The notes under the pieces were generated by a model. That model saw only the letters and a list, made by a program, of their open reading frames with translations. It was not told where the DNA came from and ran no database searches. DNA of 64,000 bases, taken from the UHGV virus genome UHGV-1370141, one strand, 5' to 3'. A program made the position numbers and the translations under genes. The DNA comes from a virus. Every line of letters begins with the position of its first letter. The stretch's first letter is position 1. Shown in pieces: positions 9,672 to 62,124 of the stretch.

Positions 9672-10937
9672 TTATTTAGATTTTTCGTAAGCAGCGATAC
9701 CTGCGGAGATATAACCGTTCAGACCGCCAGCCAGGTGTTTCTGAGTAGAAGCAATAGCTTTCTCTTGCAGAGACAGAGCCTGGTTAATACTGGTGATGTA
9801 ACGACGCGCGGTACGCACGTTTTCGGTCAGTTCCGGTTTTTCATCGATCTTGACTTTGTCGATTTCTTTCAGCAGCTTATCGATGCTGTCTTCGAAAGAC
9901 TTACGTGCGCTTTCAACTTTACGATAATCCTGAACGTTCTTCTCAATCTGTTTACCCACTTCGTTGAAGAAGGCATTGATTTTAGCCAGTTCGCCAACAG
10001 ACGGAGTTTTCACGCTGGTTTCAACGCTGTTTTCAGATTCGACGAAAGTAGAGGAGAAACCGCCTTCGTTATCGTACTCGGTCTTCACAGCCATGTTGCC
10101 GAGTTTGAAGTTCTTAAGATTGTCTTGTTTAGCCAGTTCGCTGAAATCAGCTTTCAGGCTGTCAATCTTAGCACCGTTACCTTTAGTAACATCTTCAACC
10201 AGGCCAGCGGCTTTAGAGGCCATAGAAGGCACTTTAGAGCTGTAGAAAGAGGAAACTTGGCTCAGGATGCCTTTCAGTTTCGCGACGTCGTCACCAACGA
10301 ATTTACCGTCGATGGACAGAGATTTAATGAAACCGCCAGAGATTTCATCTTTCTTCTGTTTGCCCAGCTTACGGATGATCGCGTCGTTTTTCTTCGCACG
10401 TGCCTGGATAGATTTACCCTGGTTGTGGAATTTCAGCCAACGATCTTTGATCTTACGACCCTGTTCTTTCAGCCAATCAAGGATACGTTTCATGAAGGCT
10501 TTAATGTCTTCCCACAGGGATTCACGAGCAACCTGACGGCGGTTACGAGAACCGTAGGATTCGTGAGCAACGGAAGAACGGTGTTCGAAGTTCCAGCGAG
10601 AACGGATGGATTCCTGAGCAACGTCCAGCGCTTTAGCAGCGTCGTCCGGCATGTCTTCTTCAGCGTCCATCGGCTCTTCGCCGTCTTCACCGGCATCTTC
10701 GCCGTCAGCAGCAGCCTGAGCTTCGTCCAGGACTTCCAGCTGAGCATCGGTTTCGTCGCCGTCTTCGGCCAGCAGCTCTGCGTCTGCGTCCATCGCTTCG
10801 ATCGGTTTGGTGTCATGCTCGATATCGGCCAGAGTACCTTCTACAGATTCTGCTGGCAGTTCGATGCCGTCTGGAACTACAGTAGAAGTAGACTCCATAG
10901 ACTCACGAGCAATTTTGTTTTTGTAGAAATTCGCCAT
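9672..10937 (-). CDS. acidic protein, paralog A (421 aa)
   Basis: conserved termini shared with 11020..12291 (MANF.K...ARESME / GKQKKDEISGGFI / NGY..AGI.AYEKSK); D/E-rich N-terminal third. Confidence 0.7.
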   Translation of the reverse strand: MANFYKNKIARESMESTSTVVPDGIELPAESVEGTLADIEHDTKPIEAMDADAELLAEDGDETDAQLEVLDEAQAAADGEDAGEDGEEPMDAEEDMPDDAAKALDVAQESIRSRWNFEHRSSVAHESYGSRNRRQVARESLWEDIKAFMKRILDWLKEQGRKIKDRWLKFHNQGKSIQARAKKNDAIIRKLGKQKKDEISGGFIKSLSIDGKFVGDDVAKLKGILSQVSSFYSSKVPSMASKAAGLVEDVTKGNGAKIDSLKADFSELAKQDNLKNFKLGNMAVKTEYDNEGGFSSTFVESENSVETSVKTPSVGELAKINAFFNEVGKQIEKNVQDYRKVESARKSFEDSIDKLLKEIDKVKIDEKPELTENVRTARRYITSINQALSLQEKAIASTQKHLAGGLNGYISAGIAAYEKSK

Positions 10938-11019: not shown

Positions 11020-12291
11020 TTATTTAGATTTTTCGTAAGCACCGATACCAGCACCCAGGTAGCCGTTCAGACCGCTAATAACGGTGTTAGCAACGTAGCT
11101 AACGGCGCGGTTCAGGGTCTGGTAGTTCTTCACAGACCAATCAGCAGCTTGACGTGCATTACGCAGGCCATCCCACTTGCTCTGGTCTTTTTCGGTATTC
11201 AGTGCGGTAGCAGCTTTCTCAGCAGCCTGTTGCAGCTTCACGATTTCAGCGTCATAAGCACGGAAATCTTTCAGTACAGCTTCGAAGCCTTTACCGATTG
11301 CTTCCAGAGCAGAAGCAGCGCCAGCCATTTCAGAAACGGACGGAGTTTTCACGTCTTTATCTTCAGACGCGTCACCGGTGCTCATGAATGCAATTGCAGT
11401 GAACTTGTGGCCGCCAGCCAGTTCTTTAGTACCAGACTGAACGTATGCGTTGCCCGGCAGAGCCAGCAGTTTGGACGCATCACCTTTTTCAAAGTTCGGC
11501 AGAGTGTGCAGTTTAGAAGCCGCCTTACCAAACAGTTCTACCGGCTGATCGCCACGCATTGCTTTGAATGCGTCGTCGTCACCTTTGCTCACAGCGGTCA
11601 CAGCTTCACCAGCTTGTTTTTCCAGAACACTGATGGAACCTTTAGCTTTGCCAGCGGTAACTTCTTTCGCGATAGCGATAGAGCCAGCAGCATCGAATTT
11701 ACCTTCGATAGACAGCTTGGTGATAAAGCCACCAGAGATTTCATCTTTCTTCTGTTTGCCCAGCTTACGCAGCATTTCCTGATATTTCTTCGCACGTTTC
11801 TGTGCGGTCTTACCGACGTTGAAATATTTCAGTTTCAGGTCTTTGATCTTCGCAATCACTTCTTTACAGAACTGAATGAAACGATCGTAAAGATCTTTCA
11901 GGGTTTCTTTCCAGCCTTCCTGCGCAGCAGCAGTCATGCCACGGCCACGGCGATAGGATTCACGAGCCAGTTTGGTACGTTCCAGGCACCAACGACGTGC
12001 GATGGATTCCTGGGCCACTTCGTGCAGGGCAACCGCTTCTTCCGGCATTTCTTCACCGTTAGCAACGGCTTCTTCCGCCTGATCGATAGCGTCTTCAGTA
12101 CGCTCAGTATCGGCGGCCAGAGTTTCACCGTCAGTTTCCAGCTGATCCAGTTCGCCATCCATAGAGGCTACTTCTGCAAGCTGGACGTCCAGGTTCTCTT
12201 CTGCCGGTTCAACGTTGCTGATACCGTCGATTACTTCATCGGCCGCTTCCATTGATTCACGAGCGGCGCGAGTTTTTGCGAAATTTGCCAT
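11020..12291 (-). CDS. acidic protein, paralog B (423 aa)
   Basis: tandem paralog of 9672..10937. Confidence 0.7.
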   Translation of the reverse strand: MANFAKTRAARESMEAADEVIDGISNVEPAEENLDVQLAEVASMDGELDQLETDGETLAADTERTEDAIDQAEEAVANGEEMPEEAVALHEVAQESIARRWCLERTKLARESYRRGRGMTAAAQEGWKETLKDLYDRFIQFCKEVIAKIKDLKLKYFNVGKTAQKRAKKYQEMLRKLGKQKKDEISGGFITKLSIEGKFDAAGSIAIAKEVTAGKAKGSISVLEKQAGEAVTAVSKGDDDAFKAMRGDQPVELFGKAASKLHTLPNFEKGDASKLLALPGNAYVQSGTKELAGGHKFTAIAFMSTGDASEDKDVKTPSVSEMAGAASALEAIGKGFEAVLKDFRAYDAEIVKLQQAAEKAATALNTEKDQSKWDGLRNARQAADWSVKNYQTLNRAVSYVANTVISGLNGYLGAGIGAYEKSK

Positions 12292-22850: not shown

Positions 22851-24632
22851 ATGAATAACTATTACGCACCGGAAGACGTTGTTGCCAAAGAGTGCAAATT
22901 TGTTTCGTACGCAACCGATCAGCAGAAAGAAAACGACTTCGTGCTCATAAAGGAGGTCGTCCATACTAAAGATGGCAGATTCATCCCGCGTATCGTCATG
23001 CGTGAAAATCTGAAACGGCCTATCTACATTACTTTACCGCAACACCGTAACCATCAAGAAAAGAAAGAATACGAAGAACGCAGTAAGTGTCAGGAATACA
23101 TGACCACGGATGTGATGATGTCGCAAACTATCCAGATGGGTCTAGGGGCAAGATTTCCTGACAAAAAACGTTCATTACGTCAAGTCTGTACCTCTCCGTA
23201 CGTTTACTGGGCTGACTTACCCATCACCAGCTGGATTAAAGAAAGATATATAAAGAAATGGCCTAACGCCGTTTCACCTAATCGTATTTGCGTATACGAC
23301 GTGGAAACTCGAGAAGAAGACAAATCTCGAGATCCTTGGATTATGAGTTTTGTTTTGGATGACGAAATTCATTTCTTCGCAACGAAAGACTACGTTACAC
23401 GTTGTGGTCGTGAGAACTTCGAAACGCGACTAATTAAACGTGCTCAGGAGTTACTTTCTAAAATTGCTTTTCGTGGCAAAGACAAAGAAGGCAATTCTAA
23501 GACCGAAATCAAGGACGTTATCGCTGGATATAAAATCTTCGTTTACGAATGCTTAAACTCTGGCTGCTGTATTCAACGCATGTTTGAAGAGATTCACCCT
23601 CGTCTACCTGACTTATTAGTTGCATGGAACCACGAGTTCGATATTTCACGCATGTTAGAAGCACTAGAAGCCGCAGGGATTCCACCGGAAGACGTCTTTT
23701 GTCATCCTGATGTACCGAAACAATACCGTCGTGTTTACTTCAAGAAAGACGAAGCATCGAAGAAAACGGAATCGAAATCACTGACCAAAGCGCCTTCACA
23801 ACAGTGGCACGTACTTTATTGTACCGCATCGTTCTACTGTGTGGATGCAATGTGTCTATTTCGTTCACTGCGGGTTCACGAAGGTCAACGTCCTTCTTAC
23901 AAACTTAACGCTATTCTGGAAACCGAACTGGGCTTAAACAAGTTAGACTTGCCAGAGCTGCCTTACGAGGAGAAACTGGAATGGCACTTAAAAGCACAGA
24001 AAGAATTCCCGCTCGAATACTGCGTTTATAACATCTTCGATAACCTGATGATTGTGTTGTTGGATAAAAAGACGAACGACCTGTCTTCGGCAATTTCCGT
24101 ACTGGCAGGTTATTCGATGTACGATATCTTCCCTTCGTTACCGAAACGTATTTGTATTGCTTACACCTATTACCTTTATGAACAAGGGTTGGTTATCGGT
24201 TGTGTAGGTAGTGCAATGCGTAATGATTTCGATGAAGAGGTTATCGGTACGGACGGTTGGATTGTTACGTTAACTGCGTGTATGAACGCGGAAAACGGTC
24301 TGCGAGGAATCATTAAAGAGTTTGATGATTTCTACACTGCATTCCGTGGGCAAACCGCAGATGCGGACTTAACCCAGGCGTATCCTTCTGCAACGAACAT
24401 GATGAACCAGTCTCGTGAAACAACGTTAATCGAGTTACTGAGCATTCACGGTGTTCCTGAAGAAGTACGACGTCGTGTAGGGATTAACCTTACCGCAGGG
24501 CGTGTTAATGCAATGGAAATCGCAACAGACTTCTTCTTACTGCCAGATAAGAACGTTGTTTTAGAAGCATTCTTACGCCGTCAAGGTGAGGCTATTACCG
24601 ATCCGTTTGAATACATCAAAACCACTCACTAA
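22851..24632 (+). CDS. DEDDy-type 3'-5' exonuclease domain protein (possible N-terminal part of a split family-B DNA polymerase)
   Basis: Exo I VYDVETRE, Exo II WNHEFDISRM, Exo III YNIFD in the correct order and spacing; start moved to ATG at 22851. Confidence 0.55.
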   Translation: MNNYYAPEDVVAKECKFVSYATDQQKENDFVLIKEVVHTKDGRFIPRIVMRENLKRPIYITLPQHRNHQEKKEYEERSKCQEYMTTDVMMSQTIQMGLGARFPDKKRSLRQVCTSPYVYWADLPITSWIKERYIKKWPNAVSPNRICVYDVETREEDKSRDPWIMSFVLDDEIHFFATKDYVTRCGRENFETRLIKRAQELLSKIAFRGKDKEGNSKTEIKDVIAGYKIFVYECLNSGCCIQRMFEEIHPRLPDLLVAWNHEFDISRMLEALEAAGIPPEDVFCHPDVPKQYRRVYFKKDEASKKTESKSLTKAPSQQWHVLYCTASFYCVDAMCLFRSLRVHEGQRPSYKLNAILETELGLNKLDLPELPYEEKLEWHLKAQKEFPLEYCVYNIFDNLMIVLLDKKTNDLSSAISVLAGYSMYDIFPSLPKRICIAYTYYLYEQGLVIGCVGSAMRNDFDEEVIGTDGWIVTLTACMNAENGLRGIIKEFDDFYTAFRGQTADADLTQAYPSATNMMNQSRETTLIELLSIHGVPEEVRRRVGINLTAGRVNAMEIATDFFLLPDKNVVLEAFLRRQGEAITDPFEYIKTTH

Positions 24633-24673
24633 GAAAAAATAAAAGCTACCCTACTCCTCTCGGGAGTAGGGTA
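24633..24673. terminator. terminator between convergent genes
   Basis: A-run, TACCCTACTCC-TCTCG-GGAGTAGGGTA; stem identical to the 19281 hairpin. Confidence 0.55.
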
Positions 24674-24680
24674 ATGCTTA

Positions 24681-25202: not shown

Positions 25203-26504
25203 TTAGGTGATATGGATCAACGGATCGTATTCTTGAACGACGGTTTCTTTACCGTGCATTGCGGCCATTGCCACGGACATAACGTTAGAGAACGCTGACG
25301 AAATATCCGCCGCGATAGCGCGAGGTTCTTCACCTTTCGCTTCGGAGGAGCACGCAGTACAGCAGTCGATGTGGCCGTATTGACATAAGATGGGTCGGCG
25401 TAGGCGCACAACTTTCCCTAGCTGACTATTCAAAAACTCTTCCGTCAGGGAGGTTAACTTCCCATTAACCATCGCATTCATCCCAACGTAACGTTTTACG
25501 TTGTCTTTCGTGATAACCACAGGGTGCGTGAGTTTCGTCCCACAGTCACCTGCAACGATTCGGTGGTTCTGGAAAATCATCTGGATGATACGTACCTGTT
25601 CCCCACCCTTCGCGGTTTCTGCACCACGCGAGAACGAACCTTCACGAATAGAGTTAAATTTCGCGACCAGGTTATCCATTCCCGCCTTATCAACTTCCAC
25701 CAGTGCGTTAGGAATTAACGTATAGTTACCCCCTTCCTGGAAAGACGATTCAATCCCGTACATCAGCATCAACTTTCGACGACGCATTCGTGATTTCGGC
25801 GAGTTATAGAACTCGATAGATTGGTCACCCGACAACCACTGTTTATCCAGTTCGTCCAGTGCTTTTTCTATCTTAACGATCACTGCTGGGTCGTCTAACT
25901 CGTCCTTATGCTTTAACAGCAACGCATCACGTATTTTATACGCATCAGGATGCACTGTAAGGCTTCTAAGTGTACCTGTTGGTGCAATACCAGCGGTTAA
26001 CGGTGCAAGTTCGTGTAAGCCGCTTACAAAGCGTTCTATCATGCTCGGACGAATAGCACCTTCGTTCTCAGGTTCATCGGTCTCGTGATCCAAACAACGG
26101 CGGTGCATCTCTTTTCGGTACTCTAATGGGTTTTGTGAAACGCCCATATACGGTAAACGTGTGCCAAACGCATACCAGATAACAACCCAGTTAAAGATAT
26201 AACGTCCTACGGTAGTAGGAATCGGTCCTTCTAATCCTGGGTAGTCATCGACTTTCAATTCGAACTGTTCTTCGGGAATAAACAGTTCTTGGTCTTTCAC
26301 GCCATCAGTAATGGGCTGCCAATCGCCTTTCCCATCTTCTACCGCGTAATAGTGCGGCATTCCGTCAATATACGTAATATCAAACGCTTCAGGTTCTTCA
26401 CGATTCGACGGGAACACTGACATGTTGAATATTGCAATACGCCACACTAAACGACGCCAGGCTTCAGCTTTACAAGCCGCCACCAGAAACTCAAATCTCG
26501 TCAT
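25203..26504 (-). CDS. hypothetical protein (433 aa), C-terminal Cys cluster
   Basis: ORF track; CQYGHIDCCTAC. Confidence 0.6.
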   Translation of the reverse strand: MTRFEFLVAACKAEAWRRLVWRIAIFNMSVFPSNREEPEAFDITYIDGMPHYYAVEDGKGDWQPITDGVKDQELFIPEEQFELKVDDYPGLEGPIPTTVGRYIFNWVVIWYAFGTRLPYMGVSQNPLEYRKEMHRRCLDHETDEPENEGAIRPSMIERFVSGLHELAPLTAGIAPTGTLRSLTVHPDAYKIRDALLLKHKDELDDPAVIVKIEKALDELDKQWLSGDQSIEFYNSPKSRMRRRKLMLMYGIESSFQEGGNYTLIPNALVEVDKAGMDNLVAKFNSIREGSFSRGAETAKGGEQVRIIQMIFQNHRIVAGDCGTKLTHPVVITKDNVKRYVGMNAMVNGKLTSLTEEFLNSQLGKVVRLRRPILCQYGHIDCCTACSSEAKGEEPRAIAADISSAFSNVMSVAMAAMHGKETVVQEYDPLIHIT

Positions 26505-32459: not shown

Positions 32460-34559
32460 TTACTCAATAATCGTTGCTGCGACAGAATTGTCGTACAACG
32501 AAGCAGGACGTTTACGTGACGTATAGAAACGTACGTTGTCCAAGTTCTTCTGCTGTCCCTCAAACAACAACATCGGGATTGCAGAACGCATCGCAATCAG
32601 TGTATTGTGATCTTCGAAGCGTTTTCCTTCTGCGGCATCGGCATCCTCACTGTCAAACCCTACTGCCGGGAATGGGTTAGTAGGTGACTCAACACGAGAG
32701 ATTGCCAACATAATCGCGATGTGCGTCATCGGAATCCCTTTGAGCTTACGTTGGATATATTTGAACACGTAGAACAACGCATGAGTACATTGTTTTTCCG
32801 TGGCACCACGCATCTGAACGAGGGTAATCGGTTTAACCTTACCACTCTTCTTGCTCAAACGCATTGACTCGTCCGAGAACTGTTCGAAGTTATCTGACTT
32901 GTCCGATGCTACCGAACGTAAAATCAATTCCAACCCTGCTACAAACTCCGCCATAGATTCAGACCGATTCGTATAAATTAGGATCGGCCAGGACGGTTTC
33001 CATCCTTTTAGCGGAACACGCACCGTTTTCTTGCTGGGGAATACGAGCTTATCACGATTCTTCAAGAAGAAGCGAAGGAACGACTTAGAGAAGTTACCGC
33101 AGACGCCCATTCGAACGTCAATCGGATCTTCTGCCAGGATGTTCCCTTCTGCATCTAAACGAACAAACGTAAGGTCATTAATTTCCGGGAGTGCCGTTTC
33201 ATCAATATCGTCCAGGTCTTCATGATACGCAATCTGGCTAATCTCTGAATAGACTTCATCCGAAATTACCAGTTGGTATTCATCCCAGGTACCGTATTGC
33301 GGCTTCTCCAGTAAACTAATCCCTTTAACGGAGTTGTGCTTATACTCCGTGAGATAATCACGCATTCTTGGCGACAAGACCAAGTTCAGCAGATAACGCA
33401 GGAAGTCAAGGTGTTTCGTCGACAGAATACCTTGAGTGCCCTTTTCTGAAATTGCGGTTGACGCAAGGTGACCCGGTGATGTGCCAGGTGACAGGTTATA
33501 AATCAAGTCACCCATACACGTTGCACAGATAGTCTGTCGTGACATCCCTTTGCAACACATCGCGGTACGGAACTCGATAGGTTTGTTCAAGACTTTCTCA
33601 AACTCACCGTCTTCGAATCGTAACCACGGACCACCAGTACCTTCGAAGCGATAACGCATTCCTTTCATCGCTTTGAATTTCGCTTCTTCCAACGGCGAAT
33701 TCGTAAAGGTGTGTCTGTGTACGTGATGTGTACCACAGTCTTCGTAATCGAAGAACATCAGCACGTTAGCCGCTAACTGCAACTTACGCGATGCGTACTC
33801 TGCGTCTGCAATCTTGTCGGTATTATACAGGTGAGAACGCGATGTCGCACCTGCTTCTTTCAGTCGACTGATAACAGAATGCAAGCCGGTGAAGAAACCT
33901 TCCCATACCTGGTTAGAGTACACACGGGAGTCAATCTCTGAAGTCTTACCACGAATGTAAGCCTGGAGAATCTGATCCATTTTCAGTGTGCGGTCTAACA
34001 CAGACATGACAACTGGGTTGTTTGAGAGTCTCGGATCTTTAAAGATTTTCTCAATGAGTTGATAGGCTTCTTCTACCTTATCGTTACCTTCCTCATCGTA
34101 ACCCGTCGGATAGAGTTTAGACCATTCGATAATCAGCTTGAAGTTTTCATGCTGATAAATCTCCATCATCGTATCGTAGTCAATGGTAACACAATACGAC
34201 AACAGGTTTTTCACCGTCAGGTTAAACGCGTTTGCATAAACGTGCTGCGATAACAGGTAACGGGTATCGGCCAGATCCACTCCGGCCTTACGTGCTGCTA
34301 CAGCTGCCAACGACATAAAGCGCAGATGCGCATCGTCAGTTGCCGTGTCGCCATGCTTATACGCCATGTTCGACGAGATTGGCACTTGGGGATAAAACTG
34401 GGTTAATCCCCAATACGGCCAGCTCAACTTAATGTGTCGACCAGACATTCTCAACGTGACCCCATCGTCGAAGGACACGTCGTAAACGCCCCGAAGTAGC
34501 CACACCTGATCCGAATTCAACTTGCACAAGTCTCTTACGTGAACCGGAGTCGCCTTCAT
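32460..34559 (-). CDS. RNA polymerase beta'-like subunit, C-terminal module
   Basis: CATCMGDL ... ASTAISEKGTQGILSTKH resembles bacterial RpoC CAHCYGRDL ... AAQSIGEPGTQLTMRTFH (recalled). Confidence 0.7.
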   Translation of the reverse strand: MKATPVHVRDLCKLNSDQVWLLRGVYDVSFDDGVTLRMSGRHIKLSWPYWGLTQFYPQVPISSNMAYKHGDTATDDAHLRFMSLAAVAARKAGVDLADTRYLLSQHVYANAFNLTVKNLLSYCVTIDYDTMMEIYQHENFKLIIEWSKLYPTGYDEEGNDKVEEAYQLIEKIFKDPRLSNNPVVMSVLDRTLKMDQILQAYIRGKTSEIDSRVYSNQVWEGFFTGLHSVISRLKEAGATSRSHLYNTDKIADAEYASRKLQLAANVLMFFDYEDCGTHHVHRHTFTNSPLEEAKFKAMKGMRYRFEGTGGPWLRFEDGEFEKVLNKPIEFRTAMCCKGMSRQTICATCMGDLIYNLSPGTSPGHLASTAISEKGTQGILSTKHLDFLRYLLNLVLSPRMRDYLTEYKHNSVKGISLLEKPQYGTWDEYQLVISDEVYSEISQIAYHEDLDDIDETALPEINDLTFVRLDAEGNILAEDPIDVRMGVCGNFSKSFLRFFLKNRDKLVFPSKKTVRVPLKGWKPSWPILIYTNRSESMAEFVAGLELILRSVASDKSDNFEQFSDESMRLSKKSGKVKPITLVQMRGATEKQCTHALFYVFKYIQRKLKGIPMTHIAIMLAISRVESPTNPFPAVGFDSEDADAAEGKRFEDHNTLIAMRSAIPMLLFEGQQKNLDNVRFYTSRKRPASLYDNSVAATIIE

Positions 34560-36799
34560 TATTCTTCGCCCCTTTTCATTTTCACCAATTCAAACCCTTC
34601 ACAGCTGTGAATGTTTTTCATCATTCTGTCAATCTGCGAATCTCCTAATGGGAGCTTATTCCGGTCTACCAGTACGCCCGGATTGGAAGGAGTTTGAGAT
34701 CGGTACAGCCCTACTAAAATCTCTCGATGCACAGCAGGGTTATTTGCCCTATCGTGAACCTCTTCGTAGTTACCTGGACCATAACCCGCTAATAGTCGTT
34801 CTTCCGAAGGACCAGCCCATTTCAGCGTTTTATAGTTTACCGGATACGAACCACGTCCTTGGTTAGACGCATCAATCGTGCCCAGGTAGTTCAGGTACAT
34901 CGACGAAATACTTGAGAATTCACGTCCCGTTTTATCAAGCCGTAATGTTTCTACACCACCCACGTAAAACTCGTCTTTTGTCCATTCCTGTTTACCATCG
35001 TAATTGGTAATAAGCAGTTTCGACTTACGGGGTTTAAACTCACCTAAACGTTCACTGATTTCCACCGGAGTGTCATCAAGTTCGTGAGGTAAGTAAATGC
35101 GGATGGTGAAATCGTAAATCTCTTTAAAGAGTTCTCGCTGCAAATCCTCCGTAGGATGCGTAGCCTGTAACGTGTTCGCCCATTCTGGATTATAGCGTGA
35201 AAGGTAGTCCATCAGGATTTCCCAACACTCGCCAATACGCCCTTCATCCAGCATCGGTTTAAGACGCATCTTCAGTTGTTCAGATGCTGCTGACCAATAC
35301 ATGTGGAACAGCGCGGCGTAAGTAGAACGACGAATTACGGCGTTCATTGAACGTAGTACGTGAACACGTTCGCCGAACTCGTTAATTGGCATCTGTTCAA
35401 CTGGCAGTACACGACCCACAATCCCTTTCGTACCCGAACGGTCGGTAATCTTAGAAGACACCGTCACCGGGATCGGATAACGTACCGCGATACGAATTGT
35501 GTACGTGTTGATAGGATCGCTTAATCCACGCTGAACAGGTGAAGTCAGTTTAGAGATAATCTGTTGACTTACGTTCTCTTTACCGTATTCGCCGCGACGA
35601 ATTGCATCTTCAATCACTCCGCGAATTTCTTCACGAAACTCTGCGTAGACTTCGTACGTTTCAGATGCGAAAGCTTTCTCCAGCAACACACACGCTTTGG
35701 GAGACCAGATAACGTTTTTATCTCTCGACACGGAGAAATAGAAGCGAACAATCGCATTGTAGTAGTCCTTTAACGCCAATGCGTATTTGTCAAGCTCACG
35801 TTTGTTCTCTTCAGTACAGTTAATGTTATTCGTTCCATTACCGCATGACGTTTCATCACGCCAAACCTGAATATCAACAATGCGTGTTCCGCTACGTTCC
35901 ATCAGTTCGTGGTTGTTTTCCAAACGTGCTTTATAGTGTATCGGATCGGCATCCACGTAATCACAGTTATCGAAGAACGGAGAAACGTGTTGGGTTTCTC
36001 CTAAGGTTGCATCGATCGCTGCGTACAGGTCATCGAAACGACGAGAAGCGATAACTAACCCGTCATCACGAATCGCTTCACCCACGTCTGGGAAATAGCG
36101 CGGTACACGATTCCCCTCGGGATCGTTATAGCCGTAGGTATCCAGCAAGAATTCATCTTCACGTAAGGTTTTCTCAATAACTTTCAACCCATACCCGTGA
36201 AGCTTCTGTGCCGCTTCTTCGGAAATCGTGTAGGAATCTTCGATAATGTCTGGATGTGAAATGGTAACCGTTGGCAGCACCGCACTGTCTGCGAATTCAC
36301 CATCCACCATGCACGGCATTGTCGTCAGGATTTCATCCTTTTCTAACTGGTCGGTTTCACCACGTAACAAACTGCGCAGTTTTGGCGATTCCCATTTCTC
36401 GGAAGAGAACACGTTATCGTGATTAGTATAAAAGTTAATCTCGATAACATCTATCATTGTTTTGCCCGGAATACGGCATTCTGCACGACGGAAGAATATC
36501 GCGTGTTCCAGCGCACGGGAATCCCCACGACGGCCATAACGGGTAAACGTTGCGCGACGTTGTCTACCTTCCTTAGTTGTGTAATGACAGATGCTCCCAC
36601 TGTCTTCCACAATATCGTTAAACAGAAAATCGTGGTAATTGGTATCTGCTCCCGTAAAGTGAGGTGACGGCTCAGGATGATCAATCGGCACCGAGGACTT
36701 CATATGGTTACCTACCATCGATGCCCTTGCACCTGACACCTGTGCGATATTAACTTCACGGTCAGCGACGCTGCTCAATAGCTCAACTGGCGTTTTCAT
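34559..36799 (-). CDS. RNA polymerase beta-like subunit, C-terminal module
   Basis: SKITDRSGTKGIVGRVLPVEQMP resembles RpoB [24 protein letters not shown] (recalled); RBS AACCTAAAGGAG. Confidence 0.7.
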   Translation of the reverse strand: MKTPVELLSSVADREVNIAQVSGARASMVGNHMKSSVPIDHPEPSPHFTGADTNYHDFLFNDIVEDSGSICHYTTKEGRQRRATFTRYGRRGDSRALEHAIFFRRAECRIPGKTMIDVIEINFYTNHDNVFSSEKWESPKLRSLLRGETDQLEKDEILTTMPCMVDGEFADSAVLPTVTISHPDIIEDSYTISEEAAQKLHGYGLKVIEKTLREDEFLLDTYGYNDPEGNRVPRYFPDVGEAIRDDGLVIASRRFDDLYAAIDATLGETQHVSPFFDNCDYVDADPIHYKARLENNHELMERSGTRIVDIQVWRDETSCGNGTNNINCTEENKRELDKYALALKDYYNAIVRFYFSVSRDKNVIWSPKACVLLEKAFASETYEVYAEFREEIRGVIEDAIRRGEYGKENVSQQIISKLTSPVQRGLSDPINTYTIRIAVRYPIPVTVSSKITDRSGTKGIVGRVLPVEQMPINEFGERVHVLRSMNAVIRRSTYAALFHMYWSAASEQLKMRLKPMLDEGRIGECWEILMDYLSRYNPEWANTLQATHPTEDLQRELFKEIYDFTIRIYLPHELDDTPVEISERLGEFKPRKSKLLITNYDGKQEWTKDEFYVGGVETLRLDKTGREFSSISSMYLNYLGTIDASNQGRGSYPVNYKTLKWAGPSEERLLAGYGPGNYEEVHDRANNPAVHREILVGLYRSQTPSNPGVLVDRNKLPLGDSQIDRMMKNIHSCEGFELVKMKRGEE

Positions 36800-46498: not shown

Positions 46499-48456
46499 CT
46501 ACCCCGCCATTAAGATTAATTCTGAGTCGATGGCGATACCCGCCTCCAGATCTTCTTCGGTATCGCGTAAGAAACGGTTTTCCATGCTGATAAGCTCATT
46601 GTGTAACACCATGCTGCTAGACACTTCGTCTACGTTTGTGCTGGACATAAATCCGTTATCTGGGCGATAAGCCAGCGCCAAATCCATCTCCGTGGTATCG
46701 ACTAAAAGTCTAACCTGTAATTGGTCGCCGTCGAAATCCTGTTTGTCCACTCCATTCCTTTTGGAGCAGGTGTGCAATGACACCCTCCCATGTTTTCACA
46801 TGGGCACAGACTATATCATAACCGTAGGTATTGCTACCCGTAGGTCTCCCCCACTTCGCCGCTAAACTAAGCAGCTACTCTACTCGGTTTTACCCTTTCG
46901 ATAGTCGTTGAACGATTTTCATCGCTGCTGGTTATCCATTATCACAACCCTTAGCATTATTGGTTAGCATAGGCTATCTTACGAATTGTTTCTGACTTTC
47001 GCCACCCTGTCGGGATCGTAAGCTTTAGGAGTTTCCAGCAATTCGAGGGATACGCACTAGAGGTTTCCCGTCTAGTGGGCCAAATTTTAGCATTCGGAGC
47101 TTTGATGACGCGATCGGAGATACGTAACGAACACTGTGTAACATCAGGGTTAACAGCTGAGATAAATAATGTCTGAATAGACAACTGTACAAGCGTCGGG
47201 TTTCGTAGCGCTGATATCATCAGGCCGTAACCGCCACGAGACTCCTTAATAAGTTCGTTGATAATTTCATGAACCAACGGTACGTACTGCATTGATGCAA
47301 ATGCAATAACACGTTCACACTGCCGTGGTGTGAAGTTCCGTCGACCGAGTTTGTTTTCAATAGCTACAGATTCTAACGTCACTAGCCAACGCCAAGGTGC
47401 AATAACCTTCATAGCGTCATGCGGTTCTGAGATTGGAGAGATTGTTACACGACCACCCCACGGGATGTGTGTTGAACCTAACTTGGCACGATAGAATCCA
47501 GGTTTACCTTCCATCACCTCCTGACGATGGTCAATATAGAAGTACGCTAACTGGCGATTTGCTTTTAATGCGCGACTAATAATGAAATGGGTTGGGATGC
47601 GTCGTGCATTAGTATAAAGTAACGCGATGTTCTTAACCGCGTCTATTGCACCGGTATAAACAGGATCGATAAAGATACCCTGACGTCGTTCCTCCGTAAC
47701 GATCAGTTTGGGTGAAATGATTGGAAGATGAACCGGAAAGAAAGTGTGTGATTGTTCTTCGAAGAACTTTTTCCACTCTAAGCGAGTACGTTCGCTCTCA
47801 TATCGGTTATTTTTCGTTGGTGGATAAATTTCTTTCCAGACTTCAGGAGAAGTTAAGATATTGAATATTGTTCGATGGTGGTCAATAAAATTCCTAATGC
47901 CGCGTGGAACTTGATACTCGCTAAAGATACGTTTGATTATTCGGGATCGAGTACCTTCGTCTTTATCAGGTTTATAGCACGGATCTAACATCCACATCAA
48001 TAAATCAGAACCACGTTCTACGGTCACTTTGTTTCGGTTAAACTTCTTAAGTTTAGAACCGAAGAAAGCGTTAAACATCGACCAGAATCGTGGGTTAATA
48101 AAGTTGCCTATTTCCTCCGGGGCACGAATCCAGACTTCTGAAACAATACGATGTTCTGTCACTACATAGCCGCAGGTAGGACATCGCATACCGAGATTAT
48201 ATCGATGAACGATAGGTGCTTCACAATCAATACTACAAATGGGTGCCGAATTTAGCGTCTCGTCGACTGTCCGGTTCTGTAAGATTCGGTTAATCAACTC
48301 TGACGTCTCAATGGTGTCTTTATATTTCGCAACATCATTGATAATCATCGGCGGTTTATAGCCCTTTTCCTCCGCCTCTTTGAAAGCGTCACGTAACATT
48401 TTATCGTGACTGATTAATCGCCCTGATACACCGAAGTATTGTAATCTGTCTTTCAC
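46499..48456 (-). CDS. RNA polymerase beta'-like subunit, N-terminal module; intron-interrupted (exon 1 ~47150..48456, exon 2 46499..~46783)
   Basis: exon 1: Zn finger CSIDC...CPTCG, GKPGFYRAKLG...GGRVTISP, ISALRNPTLVQLSIQTLF; exon 2: HTCSKRNGVDKQDFDGDQ ... FMSSTNV. Confidence 0.65.
46784..47150 (-). other. group I self-splicing intron (no internal ORF)
   Basis: minus-strand GTTCAACGACTA (R-like) and GATATAGTCTG (S-like) P7 elements, P9-like hairpin before exon 2, frame change between exons, no RBS; boundaries approximate. Confidence 0.65.
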
Positions 48457-48544: not shown

Positions 48545-50383
48545 TCAGACAGGGCTGTAGTTACCGGAAGCGAATGACATGTTGTAGTCACTGCCGAAGG
48601 AGTTCGGGCCGTTACCAGACAGAGTGAAGTTTTCACCGCCGTTGTTGAAGAACAACGTATTAGCCAGGCTATTGACTGCGGTAACACCATTCACTTGGAA
48701 GATGCAGTTATCACGCACGTAGTCCAGCAGCGCTTTGGCGAATTTCGGGTTGATTGCCAAATCGGTGGACTCGCCAGTTACGACCGGCTGTTTGCTGCCG
48801 AACAGGGAAGCGGCCAGCTTCAGCAGGTACAAACGCTGTTCAGTCGCGTTGAACTGACGGTGTGAGTAAGATTGCGCGTACAGGTAAGTGTAGGCATCGT
48901 GTTGGTTATCACCAACTTTGCTCAGAACAGACACCAGGTCCTGATCCTGGAAGCTACGTTTCTGGCTGTTGCTGAAATACTGACCGGAAACAGTCGGTAC
49001 GCCAGCGATAACAACGTGGTTGCAGGTGATGGTATTAACTTTCAGCATTTCAGCGAAACGCTGCGTGAACACCGTAGCACCTTTCGGAGCCATGTTGTCC
49101 AGGATGGTCAGGATGTTAGACAGTGTACCAGTGTTACCCTGGGAAACTTCACTGAACATCGTGGAGAGACCACCGATACCGTTACCAGCACGATGGTTCA
49201 CAACCAGCGCAGCTTCTGGGTAGGCGAACATGTTCAGGCACTCTTCGATAGCTTCGCGGTTGCCATCGATTTTGCTCAGGTCCGGACGTTTGTCACCCCA
49301 CTCTACGTATTCCATAACGCGGGAGAAACGACGATCGGTTTTGTTGAGAGAGTGCATGAAGCGTTCACGCCAGCCACCGATAGCGGCGATTTCTGCAAAG
49401 GCGGCCAGTTCAATCAGCTGACGTTCGATTGGTACCATAGCCCCGGAAGACTGAGAGTCCATCAGAGAAACAACAACTTCTGCTTGCAGCTGTTTGTAAT
49501 CCTGTACGCCATTTTCAGGTGCACGGCGGCCAGTGTAACGCAGGTTGATGTAACCCACACCCGCAACGCTCGGATAACCCTGAACACGTTCAGAGGACAT
49601 CAGCGTCGGGTTAGTATCGAAGCTACCGGTCTGAGTGTGTTCAACCTGAACCATCAGGTCAGCACGTTGTGCAGAGCCGTTAACGTCAGTCAGAGAACCT
49701 TCGTCTACCGCAGTTACCTGTGCAACGAAGCGATCGCCACGAGTCAGTTTCAGCTGACCCAGGTAGCCCGGAATACGGCCAAAGATACCCAGAGTCAGCT
49801 GACCCATCAGCTGGATAGCCCACTCTTCGGTCAGCGTTTTACCCAGGTCTGGAATGCAGTTCATTACCATGAATTGCACAGACGACAGGTTCTGCTGTTC
49901 GCAGATTTGTTTGGTGATGGAATCCATTACGCCAGCCTGACCGAACAGAGATGCCAGGGTGTAATAAGTTTCTTTACCGTTGATTTCACGGAAGCGTACA
50001 GACTGACCGTGTTCGAAGAACAGGATACCGTACATCCAGTGGCTGCCGTTTTCATCTGCTGGCGCAGCAACGTATGCCGCAGAACCCATTTCTGGATTCA
50101 CACCATCGATAACACCGCAGCGGAATTTGCTCAGGTACGGGTTACGTTCAACCATCTTCGCAATCAGCGCGGTGAAATGTGAAGCGGCAGAAACGTAGGA
50201 CATATAGCCGAACGCTTTATCGAAAGTGGAGATATTCTTAGACATACCACCGAAAGCATTTGCTGCGTGGGTGTTATCCACACTGCCTGCACCAGCACCT
50301 ACACCACCAAAAGACGGAGCCGGGTCTACACCAGCAGCGCCAGCATTTACGTTGTTAGGAATTTCGTTAAACTCTTTAGCCAT
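48545..50383 (-). CDS. chmA: 612-aa protein with Gly/Ala/Ser-rich terminal extensions; chimallin-like nuclear-shell candidate (alternative: structural protein)
   Basis: flexible N- and C-terminal segments, strong RBS, own terminator, immediately upstream of the RNAP beta' gene; identity inferred from context only. Confidence 0.45.
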   Translation of the reverse strand: MAKEFNEIPNNVNAGAAGVDPAPSFGGVGAGAGSVDNTHAANAFGGMSKNISTFDKAFGYMSYVSAASHFTALIAKMVERNPYLSKFRCGVIDGVNPEMGSAAYVAAPADENGSHWMYGILFFEHGQSVRFREINGKETYYTLASLFGQAGVMDSITKQICEQQNLSSVQFMVMNCIPDLGKTLTEEWAIQLMGQLTLGIFGRIPGYLGQLKLTRGDRFVAQVTAVDEGSLTDVNGSAQRADLMVQVEHTQTGSFDTNPTLMSSERVQGYPSVAGVGYINLRYTGRRAPENGVQDYKQLQAEVVVSLMDSQSSGAMVPIERQLIELAAFAEIAAIGGWRERFMHSLNKTDRRFSRVMEYVEWGDKRPDLSKIDGNREAIEECLNMFAYPEAALVVNHRAGNGIGGLSTMFSEVSQGNTGTLSNILTILDNMAPKGATVFTQRFAEMLKVNTITCNHVVIAGVPTVSGQYFSNSQKRSFQDQDLVSVLSKVGDNQHDAYTYLYAQSYSHRQFNATEQRLYLLKLAASLFGSKQPVVTGESTDLAINPKFAKALLDYVRDNCIFQVNGVTAVNSLANTLFFNNGGENFTLSGNGPNSFGSDYNMSFASGNYSPV

Positions 50384-51651: not shown

Positions 51652-51773
51652 GACTTACTCTCCCCCGCTGAGGACTCTTTCGAATCCTCATATAATAGAG
51701 TAATAACGTTGCACAAGTGTGCAACGTTACCTCTTTATTTTATCGCAAAACGTTAGGGGCTAACGTTGAACGG

Positions 51774-54125: not shown

Positions 54126-54165
54126 AAAAAAGAAAAAAAAAATAAACCCTCTCCGAAGAGAGGGT
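54126..54165 (-). terminator. terminator hairpin
   Basis: long A-run then ACCCTCTC-CGAA-GAGAGGGT. Confidence 0.55.
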
Positions 54166-54172
54166 CTTAACT

Positions 54173-54586
54173 TTAACCGGCTTCGTTTTCAATGATTTCG
54201 ATTTCGACGTCATTGAATCCGCGTGCGTTGAGCGCTGCTACCAGATCGTCTTTTTCTTGTTTGTTGTCCAACTGAACCACAAACCGTGCAGTGAGGCTTT
54301 TCACCACACGAACTTCACGTACCCACGCATCCGCAGTGACGCCGATGCGGTTACTGGAGTCCTTAAACAACATGTAGTTGTACGCGGTCAAATCGTTAAC
54401 CGGTTGTCCAACCAAAGACGAGTAAATGTTTTTCTGGATAGCGGCTAAATCTTCACCTGAGTTTTTAGCGAGCTCATAACCCACCTTTGACGCGAGTACA
54501 CGGACTCGCGTTTCGTTACCACGTAACGGGGTATCGTAAACGATGTTTACAATTGAACCCGGTTCGATGTTACTGAAGTCGTACAT
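54173..54586 (-). CDS. hypothetical small protein (137 aa), operon member
   Basis: ORF track; last gene of nine-gene cluster. Confidence 0.55.
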   Translation of the reverse strand: MYDFSNIEPGSIVNIVYDTPLRGNETRVRVLASKVGYELAKNSGEDLAAIQKNIYSSLVGQPVNDLTAYNYMLFKDSSNRIGVTADAWVREVRVVKSLTARFVVQLDNKQEKDDLVAALNARGFNDVEIEIIENEAG

Positions 54587-61388: not shown

Positions 61389-62041
61389 TTCTGTTACCTC
61401 GTTCTGTTACTACTACTCGTTCTGTTGTACGTCGCTATACCCCGACGTGTGGGTTAATGGGACGCGTTGAACGTCTGTTGAGGCGCAGCAGGCAGTGGCA
61501 GCAATGACAGCAAGGGCAGCAATGGTACAAACGCCAACGCGAATAAAAAACGCTACTGTCACTGAACACAGCTTCAGAATACTGACAATAACGCAAAAAG
61601 GGTGTCGCTAACGGGTGTCGAGCCCCAGCCTCGGTGTGTAGCCACGTCACCAGGCATAGCGACAAAGTTCGGTACTGGTCAAACACAGCATGACATGGGA
61701 CGATGAAGGTTTACAGGTGATCATCGACCAGTACCGTCGAGTTAACACGTAACTCTCAATTCACATTACAGGGTATTCACGTTACACTTAGGGGAAATAC
61801 CCAATAATTAAATTCTTGGTGGGTGCAGGTGGGAGGTTTTATCCTCCCACCGTACAACCGTTTAGGTGGTCTAACCACCAGGGTCTCACGACCCTAACGT
61901 AAGTCCGAACTTAATCGGTAGGTGTTTACACGTTTTTAAGGAGCTTTCTACCCGTGAGCAAGAGCAGAAGTTATCAGAACAACCGACGCTCAGTTGAAGG
62001 CTGACGAGTTTGTAACTCTTGTTCGATTGCTCTAATCTGGG

Positions 62042-62114
62042 CGACCAATGGCAGGATTCGAACCTGCGAAATAACCGATTATTAGTCGGGTGTTAATTCC
62101 TCTAACTTCAATGG
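62042..62114 (-). tRNA. tRNA-like gene, possibly degenerate (anticodon loop reads as AAU)
   Basis: hand-folded cloverleaf: T-arm GCAGG-TTCGAAT-CCTGC, D-arm GTTA/TAAC with GG loop; but A at position 8, a U-U acceptor mismatch and a C-U anticodon-stem mismatch. Confidence 0.4.
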
Positions 62115-62124
62115 TCTAAATCCA

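What the first reader, a model, noticed from the sequence alone, without database searches (positions are those of the whole stretch)
22851..24632. DEDDy exonuclease-domain protein encoded far from a DTDS-motif protein (possible split DNA polymerase)
22851..24632 has Exo I, II and III motifs in the correct order and spacing but is too short (~590 aa) to contain a full polymerase domain. 51774..54071, 27 kb away on the other strand, has a DTDS motif followed by K-H-Y but lacks clear motifs A and B. Together they could be the proofreading and catalytic halves of a split family-B polymerase, or two unrelated proteins.
Basis: partly seen in the sequence, partly recalled or inferred. Interest (0 to 1): 0.45.

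Follow-up and report, generated by a model that had tools for sequence, protein, structure and literature searches.

The report
Split DNA polymerase of jumbo phage

Summary
Both ORFs exist exactly at the coordinates given, and the motifs are real. The window comes from an SPN3US/Erwinia-like jumbo phage.

- **22851..24632 (+), 593 aa.** This is the N-terminal subunit (DNAP-N). It holds the N-terminal domain, the DEDDy exonuclease (D150, E152, D264, Y393, D397) and polymerase motif A (D506-LTQA-Y511-PS).
- **51774..54071 (-), 765 aa.** This is the C-terminal subunit (DNAP-C), matching Pfam PF20286 at E=1e-284. It holds motif B (Q153/K157/N161/G165), motif C (D418-T-D420), K496-H-Y498 and the thumb.

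The split therefore lies inside the palm, not between an "exonuclease" and a "polymerase", and the catalytic site is built from two chains. Both halves occur in about 300 phage genomes with the same genus distribution. Gene order was the same in the seven relatives inspected, and I found no fused form.

A 2026 preprint (PMC13648687) reports a 2.14 Å structure of the phiKZ homologues gp82+gp50 as a stable 1:1 complex. Every catalytic residue it names aligns to an identical residue here.

Verdict: observation confirmed, interpretation supported, already known, low interest.

Side notes: a conserved SH3-fold gene upstream whose role is untested, a group I intron in an RNA polymerase gene, and a near-identical phage filed as an E. 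coli "plasmid".

The parts
22851..24632 (+). DNAP-N: N-terminal subunit of the split family-B DNA polymerase (593 aa). Contains the N-terminal domain, the 3'-5' exonuclease, the first part of the palm with motif A, and the start of the palm-insertion domain.
   Evidence: PHROG 3011 'DNA polymerase' E=2.7e-252. hhalign to RB69-like gp43: probability 97.4%, residues 17-581 against 2-486. AF2 pLDDT 80; Foldseek top 50 all PolB. 34% identical to phiKZ gp82.
23298..23306 (+). Exo I motif, D150-V-E152
   Evidence: Invariant in 23 homologues. Aligns to phiKZ gp82 D151/E153, which coordinate Mg2+ in the cryo-EM structure (PMC13648687).
23628..23642 (+). Exo II motif, N260-HEF-D264
   Evidence: N260 and D264 invariant. 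D264 aligns to phiKZ gp82 D251.
24027..24041 (+). Exo III motif, Y393-NIF-D397
   Evidence: Invariant. Aligned to RB69 'YISYNIIDV'. D397 aligns to phiKZ gp82 D452.
24360..24389 (+). Polymerase motif A, D504-A-D506-L-T-Q-A-Y511-P-S513. Holds the catalytic Asp D506 and the steric-gate-position Tyr Y511.
   Evidence: D504, D506, Y511 and P512 invariant. HMMER aligns 'DaDltqaYPSatlilNvskeTt' to gp43 'SFDLTSLYPSIIRQVNISPET' residues 404-431. D506 aligns to phiKZ gp82 D562.
24447..24629 (+). C-terminal segment (residues 533-593), equivalent to the first of the three segments of the phiKZ 'palm insertion' domain that folds together with DNAP-C.
   Evidence: Alignment to gp82 589-638 (PMC13648687). 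Low AF2 confidence when modelled alone: residues 458-531, 544-552 and 587-593 have pLDDT <50.
51774..54071 (-). DNAP-C: C-terminal subunit of the split polymerase (765 aa). Contains the rest of the palm, the fingers, the thumb and a large helical palm insertion.
53577..53615 (-). Motif B (fingers), Q153-NAV-K157-TLN-N161-GM-S164-G165
   Evidence: Q153, K157, N160, N161, S164 and G165 invariant in 36 homologues. Aligned to Pol zeta motif B. By motif position, taking the motif B numbering from the gp43 sequence, these correspond to gp43 Q556/K560/N564/Y567/G568.
52809..52823 (-). Motif C, S417-D418-T419-D420-S421 (catalytic Asp pair)
   Evidence: Invariant. D420 aligns to phiKZ gp50 D426, the motif C active-site Asp in the structure (PMC13648687).
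52578..52586 (-). K496-H497-Y498, the 'KxY' primer-terminus motif
   Evidence: Invariant. HMMER aligns this region to RB69/JS10 gp43 706-755, 'KKRY'.
53790..54071 (-). DNAP-C residues 1-94: second segment of the palm-insertion domain (family-specific, no counterpart in RB69)
   Evidence: Alignment to phiKZ gp50 1-98 (PMC13648687). Well folded in AF2, pLDDT 81-95.
52833..53465 (-). DNAP-C residues 203-413: third, largely helical segment of the palm insertion, between motif B and motif C
54173..54586 (-). Small SH3-fold protein (137 aa) encoded immediately upstream of DNAP-C. A conserved neighbour whose role is not established.
   Evidence: Pfam PF20287 'SH3 fold domain associated with phage DNA polymerases' E=8e-29. 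Weak similarity to phiKZ gp49, E=9e-5. A roughly 138-aa ORF lies in the same position in Huxley, phiKZ, Noxifer, MIZ-Pa99, Survivor, BUCTxx100, RAY and PCH45.
54144..54167 (-). Terminator-like hairpin with a T-run between the SH3-fold gene and DNAP-C
   Evidence: 10-pair stem followed by ATTTTTTTTT.
24646..24674 (.). Bidirectional terminator-like hairpin just after the DNAP-N stop codon, between convergent genes
   Evidence: 12-pair stem found on both strands.
51702..51731 (.). Bidirectional terminator-like hairpin just after the DNAP-C stop codon, between convergent genes
   Evidence: 11-13-pair stem found on both strands.

Best explanation
The two genes encode the two obligate subunits of one family-B replicative DNA polymerase, the chimallivirus (phiKZ-like jumbo phage) split polymerase.

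- **DNAP-N (22851..24632).** Supplies the N-terminal domain, the DEDDy proofreading exonuclease and the first palm strand with the motif A aspartate (D506).
- **DNAP-C (51774..54071).** Supplies the fingers (motif B: K157, N161), the motif C aspartates (D418/D420), the KxY motif and the thumb.

The chain break lies inside a family-specific helical 'palm insertion' built from the C-terminal tail of DNAP-N and two segments of DNAP-C. The two proteins therefore interdigitate into a 1:1 heterodimer, and the polymerase active site is composed of residues from both chains.

Each gene has its own start codon and ribosome-binding site and is bounded by its own terminator-like hairpin. The two lie 27 kb apart on opposite strands.

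What is shown here: homology, motif content, the fold of each half, the position of the split, co-occurrence and synteny.

What is inferred for this phage: that its two proteins behave the same way.
For: **Complementary, collinear coverage of one PolB.** The DNAP-N profile aligns to RB69 gp43 at 91-232 (Exo I/II), 269-346 (Exo III) and 405-431 (motif A), and to an RB69-like gp43 over 2-486 at probability 97.4%. The DNAP-C profile aligns to Pol zeta 1021-1098 (the strand before the fingers plus motif B) and to RB69 706-755 (KKRY).

**All catalytic residues are invariant** across 23 and 36 diverse homologues, and across eight phage genomes from different genera plus paired metagenomic contigs.

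**Structure.**
- DNAP-N model: pLDDT 80; Foldseek top 50 all PolB, E about 2e-12.
- When modelled alone, the parts that should meet are the uncertain ones: DNAP-N 458-531 has pLDDT <50, DNAP-C 165-180 has <50, and the block holding most of motif C (411-420) averages 69.

**Co-occurrence.** tblastn finds DNAP-C in 299 and DNAP-N in 302 phage records, with matching genus counts: Pseudomonas 81/81, Erwinia 62/62, Vibrio 23/23, and so on.

**Synteny.** The order SH3 gene, DNAP-C..., RNAP, SbcD, RNAP, helicase..., DNAP-N is conserved in Huxley, phiKZ, Noxifer, MIZ-Pa99, Survivor, PS1 and BUCTxx100.

**No fused form.** The 61 word-indexed hits and the best 150 of 781 strong cluster representatives (E<=1e-30) are almost all 460-700 aa. 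The single 894-aa outlier has an extension that shows no similarity to DNAP-C and no Pfam domain.

**Literature.**
- 'Split subunit DNA polymerase' in phiKZ, OBP and SPN3US gp18/gp44 (PMC5105663, PMC5694885).
- phiKZ gp82+gp50 form a stable 1:1 complex, solved at 2.14 Å. The split lies inside the palm insertion. The active site uses D562 (gp82) and D426 (gp50); the exonuclease uses D151/E153/D251/D452 (PMC13648687).
- The same holds in E. coli phage Goslar (PMC13648698).

My alignment maps those residues to identical residues here: D150, E152, D264, D397 and D506 in DNAP-N, and D420 in DNAP-C.
Against: - Nothing here tests physical association of this phage's two proteins.
- The window proteins are only 34% and 36% identical to the solved phiKZ subunits.
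- Global superposition of the DNAP-C model on PolB is poor (Foldseek TM about 0.23), because of the 210-residue helical insertion.
- The model shows motif C at the start of a helix rather than in the canonical beta-hairpin. This is probably an artefact of modelling without the partner.
- The Rhc third subunit was not found among the ten ORFs of 420-570 aa that I scanned in this window.
Confidence: 0.95

Rival explanations
1. Two independent enzymes: an exonuclease-less polymerase (the 765-aa protein) that works on its own, and a standalone proofreading or repair exonuclease (the 593-aa protein) that at most associates loosely in the replisome.
For: This is how PMC7824862 words it. The genes are 27 kb apart, on opposite strands, in separate transcription units. 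Pfam recognises only the 765-aa protein as a polymerase.
Against: The 765-aa protein has no motif A. The invariant motif A Asp and the YPS element are on the 593-aa protein. About 135 conserved residues after the exonuclease domain of the 593-aa protein have no role in a standalone exonuclease and are not confidently folded alone. For phiKZ, cryo-EM and mutagenesis show a 1:1 complex in which the D562A change in DNAP-N is the polymerase-dead mutation (PMC13648687).
Confidence: 0.03
2. The two products are joined after translation by a split intein, or before translation by RNA trans-splicing, to give one canonical polypeptide.
For: Split-intein PolBs exist in other jumbo phages such as MIJ3 (PMC6892783). 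This window does contain a group I intron, though in another gene.
Against: No intein or Hint domain appears in either protein, even at Pfam E<=1. The C-terminal tails of DNAP-N homologues vary in length and sequence. No Rfam intron hit lies at either gene end. Each gene has its own start, stop and ribosome-binding site. The phiKZ enzyme was purified and solved as two separate chains (PMC13648687).
Confidence: 0.01
3. Chance motif matches in two unrelated proteins.
For: The short motifs DxE, YxxxD and DTDS occur often by chance, and single-sequence Pfam and PDB searches of the 593-aa protein return nothing.
Against: Full-length family matches at E=1e-284 and 2.7e-252. Profile-profile and structural matches to PolB for both proteins. 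All motif residues are invariant across hundreds of homologues.
Confidence: 0.005

Closest known systems
phiKZ DNAP-N (gp82) + DNAP-C (gp50), the chimallivirus split B-family DNA polymerase (cryo-EM 2.14 Å; Basu et al. 2026 preprint, PMC13648687). Goslar gp068 + gp244 (PMC13648698).
   Same: Same two-gene architecture, the same split point inside the palm insertion, and the same conserved neighbours (SH3 gene upstream of DNAP-C). Identical catalytic residues: exonuclease D150/E152/D264/D397 = gp82 D151/E153/D251/D452; motif A D506 = D562; motif C D420 = gp50 D426.
   Different: Only 34% and 36% identity. The window's DNAP-N lacks the 'little finger' insertion (gp82 350-415), as the authors already report for phages outside a subset of Pseudomonas-infecting chimalliviruses. 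The window's DNAP-C has an extra acidic C-terminal tail. Complex formation is not shown for this phage.
SPN3US gp18/gp44 and the Erwinia phage homologues (Huxley gp34/gp61, Asesino, pEa_SNUABM series)
   Same: Closest relatives: 73-80% amino-acid identity, the same 27-30 kb separation on opposite strands, and the same flanking genes. They are called a split-subunit DNA polymerase in PMC5694885.
   Different: A different phage: at most about 78% nucleotide identity to any record in the phage collection (typically 73-74%), and 97.5% to an E. coli 'plasmid' record.
RB69 / T4 gp43 (single-chain family-B replicase)
   Same: Best structural match for both halves. The order of Exo I-III, motif A, motif B, motif C and KxY is the same.
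   Different: RB69 gp43 is one 903-aa chain. Here there are two chains totalling 1358 aa, with a palm insertion of about 365 residues. Motif B has an invariant Ser where RB69 has Y567. No sliding clamp of the gp45 type is known for this family.
Other split family-B polymerases: Methanothermobacter thermautotrophicus PolB and group B magroviruses (PMC5434244), and intein-split PolB of phages MIJ3/PA5oct (PMC6892783)
   Same: The polymerase gene is broken within the catalytic domain, and activity requires both parts.
   Different: These are independent events at other positions. In magroviruses and MIJ3 the two genes lie next to each other (PMC5434244, PMC6892783). MIJ3 has a split intein. None of these has the palm-insertion domain or the 27-kb separation.

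Membership tests
Family B DNA polymerase | 3'-5' exonuclease motifs Exo I (DxE), Exo II (NxxxFD) and Exo III (YxxxD), in order | tested here: met
   D150/E152, N260/D264 and Y393/D397 are invariant in 23 homologues. They align to the RB69 gp43 exonuclease motifs.
Family B DNA polymerase | Motif A (DxxSLYPS) with a catalytic Asp | tested here: met
   D506-LTQA-Y511-P512-S513 lies on the 593-aa protein, not on the 765-aa one. It aligns to gp43 D411...Y416-P-S.
Family B DNA polymerase | Motif B (KxxxNSxYG) in the fingers | tested here: met
   K157-TLN-N161-GM-S164-G165 is invariant at K, N, S and G. It aligns to Pol zeta motif B. Variant: Ser replaces the Tyr (RB69 Y567).
Family B DNA polymerase | Motif C (DTDS) and the KxY motif | tested here: met
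   S417-DTD-S421 and K496-H-Y498 are invariant. The KxY region aligns to gp43 706-755.
Family B DNA polymerase | Fold: N-terminal and exonuclease domains, then palm, fingers and thumb | tested here: met
Chimallivirus split DNA polymerase (DNAP-N + DNAP-C) | DNAP-C matches Pfam PF20286 (divDNApol) over its full length above the curated cut-off | tested here: met
   946.7 bits against a cut-off of 25.7; residues 11-724 against profile positions 3-705 of 705.
Chimallivirus split DNA polymerase (DNAP-N + DNAP-C) | DNAP-N is homologous to phiKZ gp82 and carries the experimentally defined active-site residues | tested here: met
   tblastn to PHIKZ082 at 35% identity. D151/E153/D251/D452/D562 map to D150/E152/D264/D397/D506.
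Chimallivirus split DNA polymerase (DNAP-N + DNAP-C) | The chain break lies inside the palm-insertion domain, after motif A and before the fingers | tested here: met
   The confident alignment of DNAP-N to gp43 ends near residue 431. DNAP-C residues 98-118 align to the 'APNG' strand preceding the fingers. The segment boundaries map to A 533-593, B 1-94 and B 203-413.
Chimallivirus split DNA polymerase (DNAP-N + DNAP-C) | Stable 1:1 physical complex of the two chains | not testable with these tools
The complex is known for phiKZ and Goslar only (PMC13648687, PMC13648698).
Chimallivirus split DNA polymerase (DNAP-N + DNAP-C) | Third subunit Rhc (RNase H-clamp) encoded in the genome | tested here: inconclusive
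   No RNase H domain in ten ORFs of 420-570 aa scanned in the window. The gene may lie outside the 64 kb, as phiKZ gp155 lies far from gp50 and gp82.
Chimallivirus split DNA polymerase (DNAP-N + DNAP-C) | Genomic context of a phiKZ-like phage: split multisubunit RNA polymerase genes, phiKZ internal head proteins, SH3DP gene upstream of DNAP-C | tested here: met
   PHROG 2962 RNAP beta subunit at 25203..26504. PF00562 at 34559..36799 and PF20287 at 54173..54586. PF12699 phiKZ_IP at 9672..10937 and 11020..12291. Synteny with Huxley and phiKZ. The ORF in the chimallin position (48545..50383) shows no significant pairwise similarity to phiKZ gp54 (E=0.049).
Standalone DEDD exonucleases (RNase D, RNase T, DnaQ) | Match to the RNase D/T/DnaQ exonuclease families with no polymerase elements | tested here: not met
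   No such Pfam hit at E<=1. 2 of 23 family members hit PF03104, the PolB exonuclease domain. Structural neighbours are PolBs only. The protein carries motif A.
Intein-split family-B polymerases | Split-intein (Hint) halves at the C-terminus of part 1 and the N-terminus of part 2 | tested here: not met
   No intein or Hint family in either protein at Pfam E<=1. The junction tails are variable.

The most novel reading that the evidence does not exclude
The SPN3US-like lineage in this window may run a variant of the solved phiKZ machine.

- The conserved SH3-fold protein encoded just upstream of DNAP-C (PF20287) is absent from the published reconstitutions. It could be a further, regulatory or tethering partner of the polymerase.
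- The lineage-specific acidic C-terminal tail of DNAP-C could likewise act as a tether.
- Placing the two catalytic halves in separate transcription units could let the phage control when an active replicase forms.

Nothing here excludes this, and nothing here supports it beyond conserved gene adjacency.
Probability: 0.12. Interest if true: 0.4.

Novelty: already known. Interest (0 to 1): 0.12.

Why it matters
There is little to discover here. The split polymerase of phiKZ-like phages was recognised in 2012 (as cited in PMC5105663), is in Pfam and PHROGs, and now has a cryo-EM structure and biochemistry (PMC13648687, PMC13648698).

The practical value is for annotation. The N-terminal subunit has no Pfam or NCBIfam model. 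A near-identical phage genome sits in RefSeq as an E. coli 'plasmid', and both the DNAP-N gene and all seven flanking genes I inspected are labelled 'hypothetical protein'. Some phage records label the DNAP-N homologue a ribonuclease or an RNA polymerase subunit, and one labels the DNAP-C homologue a tubulin-like protein.

It is also a useful reminder that this protein is not a free-standing exonuclease. It carries half of the polymerase active site.

Tried and rejected
- **Two-chain model.** The complex was therefore not modelled.
- **Single-sequence searches.** phmmer against PDB sequences found nothing for the 593-aa protein and only a spurious lipoxygenase hit (E=0.07) for the 765-aa protein. 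Profiles were needed.
- **NCBIfam.** No model for either half or for the SH3 protein.
- **Cornelissen et al. 2012** (PMC3264338), the paper credited with the original identification, is not held. I rely on how later papers cite it.
- **Search for an unsplit relative.** The best 150 representatives are almost all 490-700 aa. The one 894-aa protein (P0191) has a C-terminal extension that shows no similarity to DNAP-C and no Pfam domain.
- **Chimallin.** BLASTP of the syntenic ORF against phiKZ gp54 is not significant, so that identification rests on position only.
- **Rhc.** Not found among ten ORFs scanned.
- **E. coli phage Sharanji paper** (PMC11895373): its listed replication genes (DNA polymerases I, II and III, gyrase) do not resemble this system, so I set it aside.
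Full report
**What is at the coordinates**

- 22851..24632 (+) is an ATG-started ORF of 593 aa, inside a longer TTG-started reading frame, with a GAGAG ribosome-binding site.
- 51774..54071 (-) is a GTG-started ORF of 765 aa with a GGGGA ribosome-binding site.
- Both are bounded by strong terminator-like hairpins: 24646-24674 after the first gene, and 54144-54167 before and 51702-51731 after the second.
- They are therefore separate transcription units, 27 kb apart on opposite strands.

**Which genome this is**

The window is from a phiKZ-like jumbo phage of the SPN3US / Erwinia Machinavirus type.
- Nucleotide identity to any record in the phage collection is at most about 78% (typically 73-74%). 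Protein identity to those phages is 73-80%.
- The window contains split multisubunit RNA polymerase genes, phiKZ-type internal head proteins and a tail tube protein.
- Gene order matches phage Huxley and, at greater distance, phiKZ, Noxifer, MIZ-Pa99, Survivor, PS1 and BUCTxx100.
- A 97.5% identical copy of the first gene lies on a 221,873-bp circular record deposited as a plasmid of a urinary E. coli isolate.

**The 765-aa protein**

- It matches Pfam PF20286 'Divergent Family B DNA polymerase' over its whole length (E=1e-284). It also weakly matches PF00136 at residues 89-189 and PHROG 2927.
- In 36 homologues down to 35% identity the invariant residues include Q153, K157, N160, N161, S164 and G165; S417-D418-T419-D420-S421-T422; and K496-H497-Y498.
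- A profile of the family aligns residues 88-166 to DNA polymerase zeta 1021-1098. That stretch covers the strand before the fingers plus motif B. It also aligns 482-531 to RB69 gp43 706-755, the KKRY region.
It has a Ser where RB69 has Y567; I took the numbering from an RB69-like gp43 of identical length.
- The AlphaFold2 model is confident (pLDDT 85, pTM 0.81).
- The 50 best Foldseek PDB hits are all family-B polymerases.

**The 593-aa protein**

- Pfam and NCBIfam have no model for it. PHROG 3011 'DNA polymerase' matches at E=2.7e-252.
- In 23 homologues down to 25% identity the invariant residues are D150/E152, N260/D264 and Y393/D397, the three exonuclease motifs.
- Near the C-terminus, D504, D506, Y511, P512, N519, T524 and E528 are also invariant.
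- That last block reads DADLTQAYPSATNMMNQSRETT. HMMER aligns it to RB69 SFDLTSLYPSIIRQVNISPET (405-431), which is polymerase motif A and the helix that follows it.
- hhalign of the family against an RB69-like gp43 gives probability 97.4%, E=1.5e-11, residues 17-581 against 2-486.
- The AlphaFold2 model is confident for residues 1-457, the N-terminal and exonuclease domains. It is not confident for 458-531, the stretch that holds motif A.
- The 50 best Foldseek hits are all family-B polymerases aligned over about 470 columns. None is an RNase D/T-type enzyme.

**Where the split lies**

Together the two proteins cover one family-B polymerase in order, with no overlap:
- N-terminal domain, exonuclease and motif A on the first protein.
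- The strand before the fingers, motif B, motif C, KxY and the thumb on the second.

The break falls between gp43 positions about 431 and 455. It is flanked by family-specific sequence: about 60 residues at the end of the first protein and about 95 at the start of the second.

The polymerase active site therefore needs an aspartate from each chain. The first protein is not simply a proofreading subunit.

**Distribution**

- tblastn finds the second protein in 299 phage records and the first in 302, with matching genus counts.
- All motifs are conserved in paired sequences from phiKZ, Noxifer, an EL-like phage, RAY, Survivor, PS1 and BUCTxx100.
- A profile search of 1.84 billion cluster representatives finds 781 strong relatives of the first protein (E<=1e-30). 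The best 150 are almost all 490-700 aa.
- The single long one (894 aa) carries an extension that shows no similarity to DNAP-C and no Pfam domain.
- I found no fused form, so the split appears fixed in the sampled family.

**What is already known**

- Later papers credit Cornelissen et al. 2012 with identifying the 'split subunit DNA polymerase' of phiKZ and OBP. They name SPN3US gp18 and gp44 as its subunits (PMC5105663, PMC5694885).
- Iyer et al. 2021 defined the divergent polymerase clade. They noted its long helical insert and the conserved upstream SH3-fold gene, and described the exonuclease as separately encoded (PMC7824862).
- Basu et al. (PMC13648687) purified gp82+gp50 as a stable 1:1 complex and solved it at 2.14 Å. 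The split lies inside a 'palm insertion' domain made of gp82 589-638, gp50 1-98 and gp50 221-419.
- In that structure the polymerase site uses D562 of gp82 and D426 of gp50, and the exonuclease uses D151, E153, D251 and D452. A third protein, Rhc, acts as a clamp-like processivity subunit.
- Rani et al. show the same for E. coli phage Goslar (PMC13648698).

In my alignment each of those residues corresponds to an identical residue here: D506 and D420, and D150, E152, D264 and D397. The palm-insertion segments map to residues 533-593 of the first protein and 1-94 and 203-413 of the second. The 'little finger' insertion of phiKZ gp82 is absent here, as those authors already report for phages outside a subset of Pseudomonas-infecting chimalliviruses.

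**Rival readings**

- **Independent exonuclease plus self-sufficient polymerase.** This fails because motif A is on the 'exonuclease' protein and absent from the other.
- **Joining by intein or trans-splicing.** There is no intein domain, the junction tails are variable, and there is no intron signal at the gene ends. The phiKZ enzyme is two chains.
- **Chance.** Excluded by the family, profile and fold matches.

**Limits**

- Association of this phage's own two proteins was not tested.
- The Rhc gene was not found among the ten ORFs I scanned in the window.
- The ORF in the chimallin position is identified by synteny only.

**Verdict**

The refinement is that the break is inside the palm, so the catalytic site is shared between chains. 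The system is already known and structurally solved in a homologue, and this is one more member. Interest is low.

Noticed in passing
window 46739..47088 (-), within the gene spanning 46526..48456: A group I intron interrupts an RNA polymerase subunit gene. Rfam RF00028 scores 63.7 bits, E=8e-14, at 46787..47099. The gene is the homologue of Huxley gp40, in the position of phiKZ gp55. Huxley gp40 residues 5-457 align to 48441..47089 and residues 458-528 to 46738..46526, leaving about 350 nt with no ORF.
   Followed up: partly
window 54173..54586 (-): A conserved 137-aa SH3-fold protein (Pfam PF20287, 'associated with phage DNA polymerases') lies directly upstream of DNAP-C, separated from it by a terminator-like hairpin. 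Its role is untested. The phiKZ cryo-EM preprint does not mention it. A Tn-seq preprint reports a non-essential 'SH3 family' core gene in phage PCH45 that may be the same gene.
   Followed up: partly
L012 (NZ_CP173450.1 108984-116765): A 221,873-bp circular 'plasmid' of E. coli strain 98232 (urine, Egypt) carries the DNAP-N gene at 97.5% identity. The gene and all seven flanking genes are annotated 'hypothetical protein'.
   Followed up: partly
window 62040..62116 (-): ARAGORN calls a tRNA-Ile with anticodon AAT, which is unusual. Rfam gives the tRNA 40 bits.
   Followed up: no
window 51777..51839 (-), DNAP-C residues about 745-765: DNAP-C ends in an acidic tail (ERAGEDDEEEDEEETFDEE) that is predicted disordered (pLDDT <50). 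phiKZ, RAY and EL-like homologues lack it and end near '...SDFY/SDEH'. It may be a protein-interaction tail.
   Followed up: no
window 53580..53582 (-), DNAP-C S164: Motif B has an invariant Ser across the family at the position of RB69 Y567. As I recall, this tyrosine influences base selection in RB69. The consequence for fidelity here is unknown.
   Followed up: no
P0042 (478 aa, on a 385,734-bp contig); compare Goslar gp068: Some DNAP-N homologues are annotated short and stop before motif A. [quoted passage not shown] The short database entries may be similar cases rather than true truncations.
   Followed up: no
window 48545..50383 (-): A 612-aa ORF lies in the syntenic position of chimallin, the nuclear shell protein (phiKZ gp54; the syntenic ORF in MIZ-Pa99 is annotated 'nuclear shell protein'). 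It has no Pfam hit and no significant BLASTP similarity to phiKZ gp54 (E=0.049). It matches PHROG 8316, 'unknown function'.
   Followed up: partly
phage records listed: Homologues of the two halves are inconsistently annotated in public phage records. Labels include 'hypothetical protein', 'T4-like DNA polymerase', 'putative ribonuclease', 'putative DNA-directed RNA polymerase beta subunit' and 'putative tubulin like protein'.
   Followed up: no
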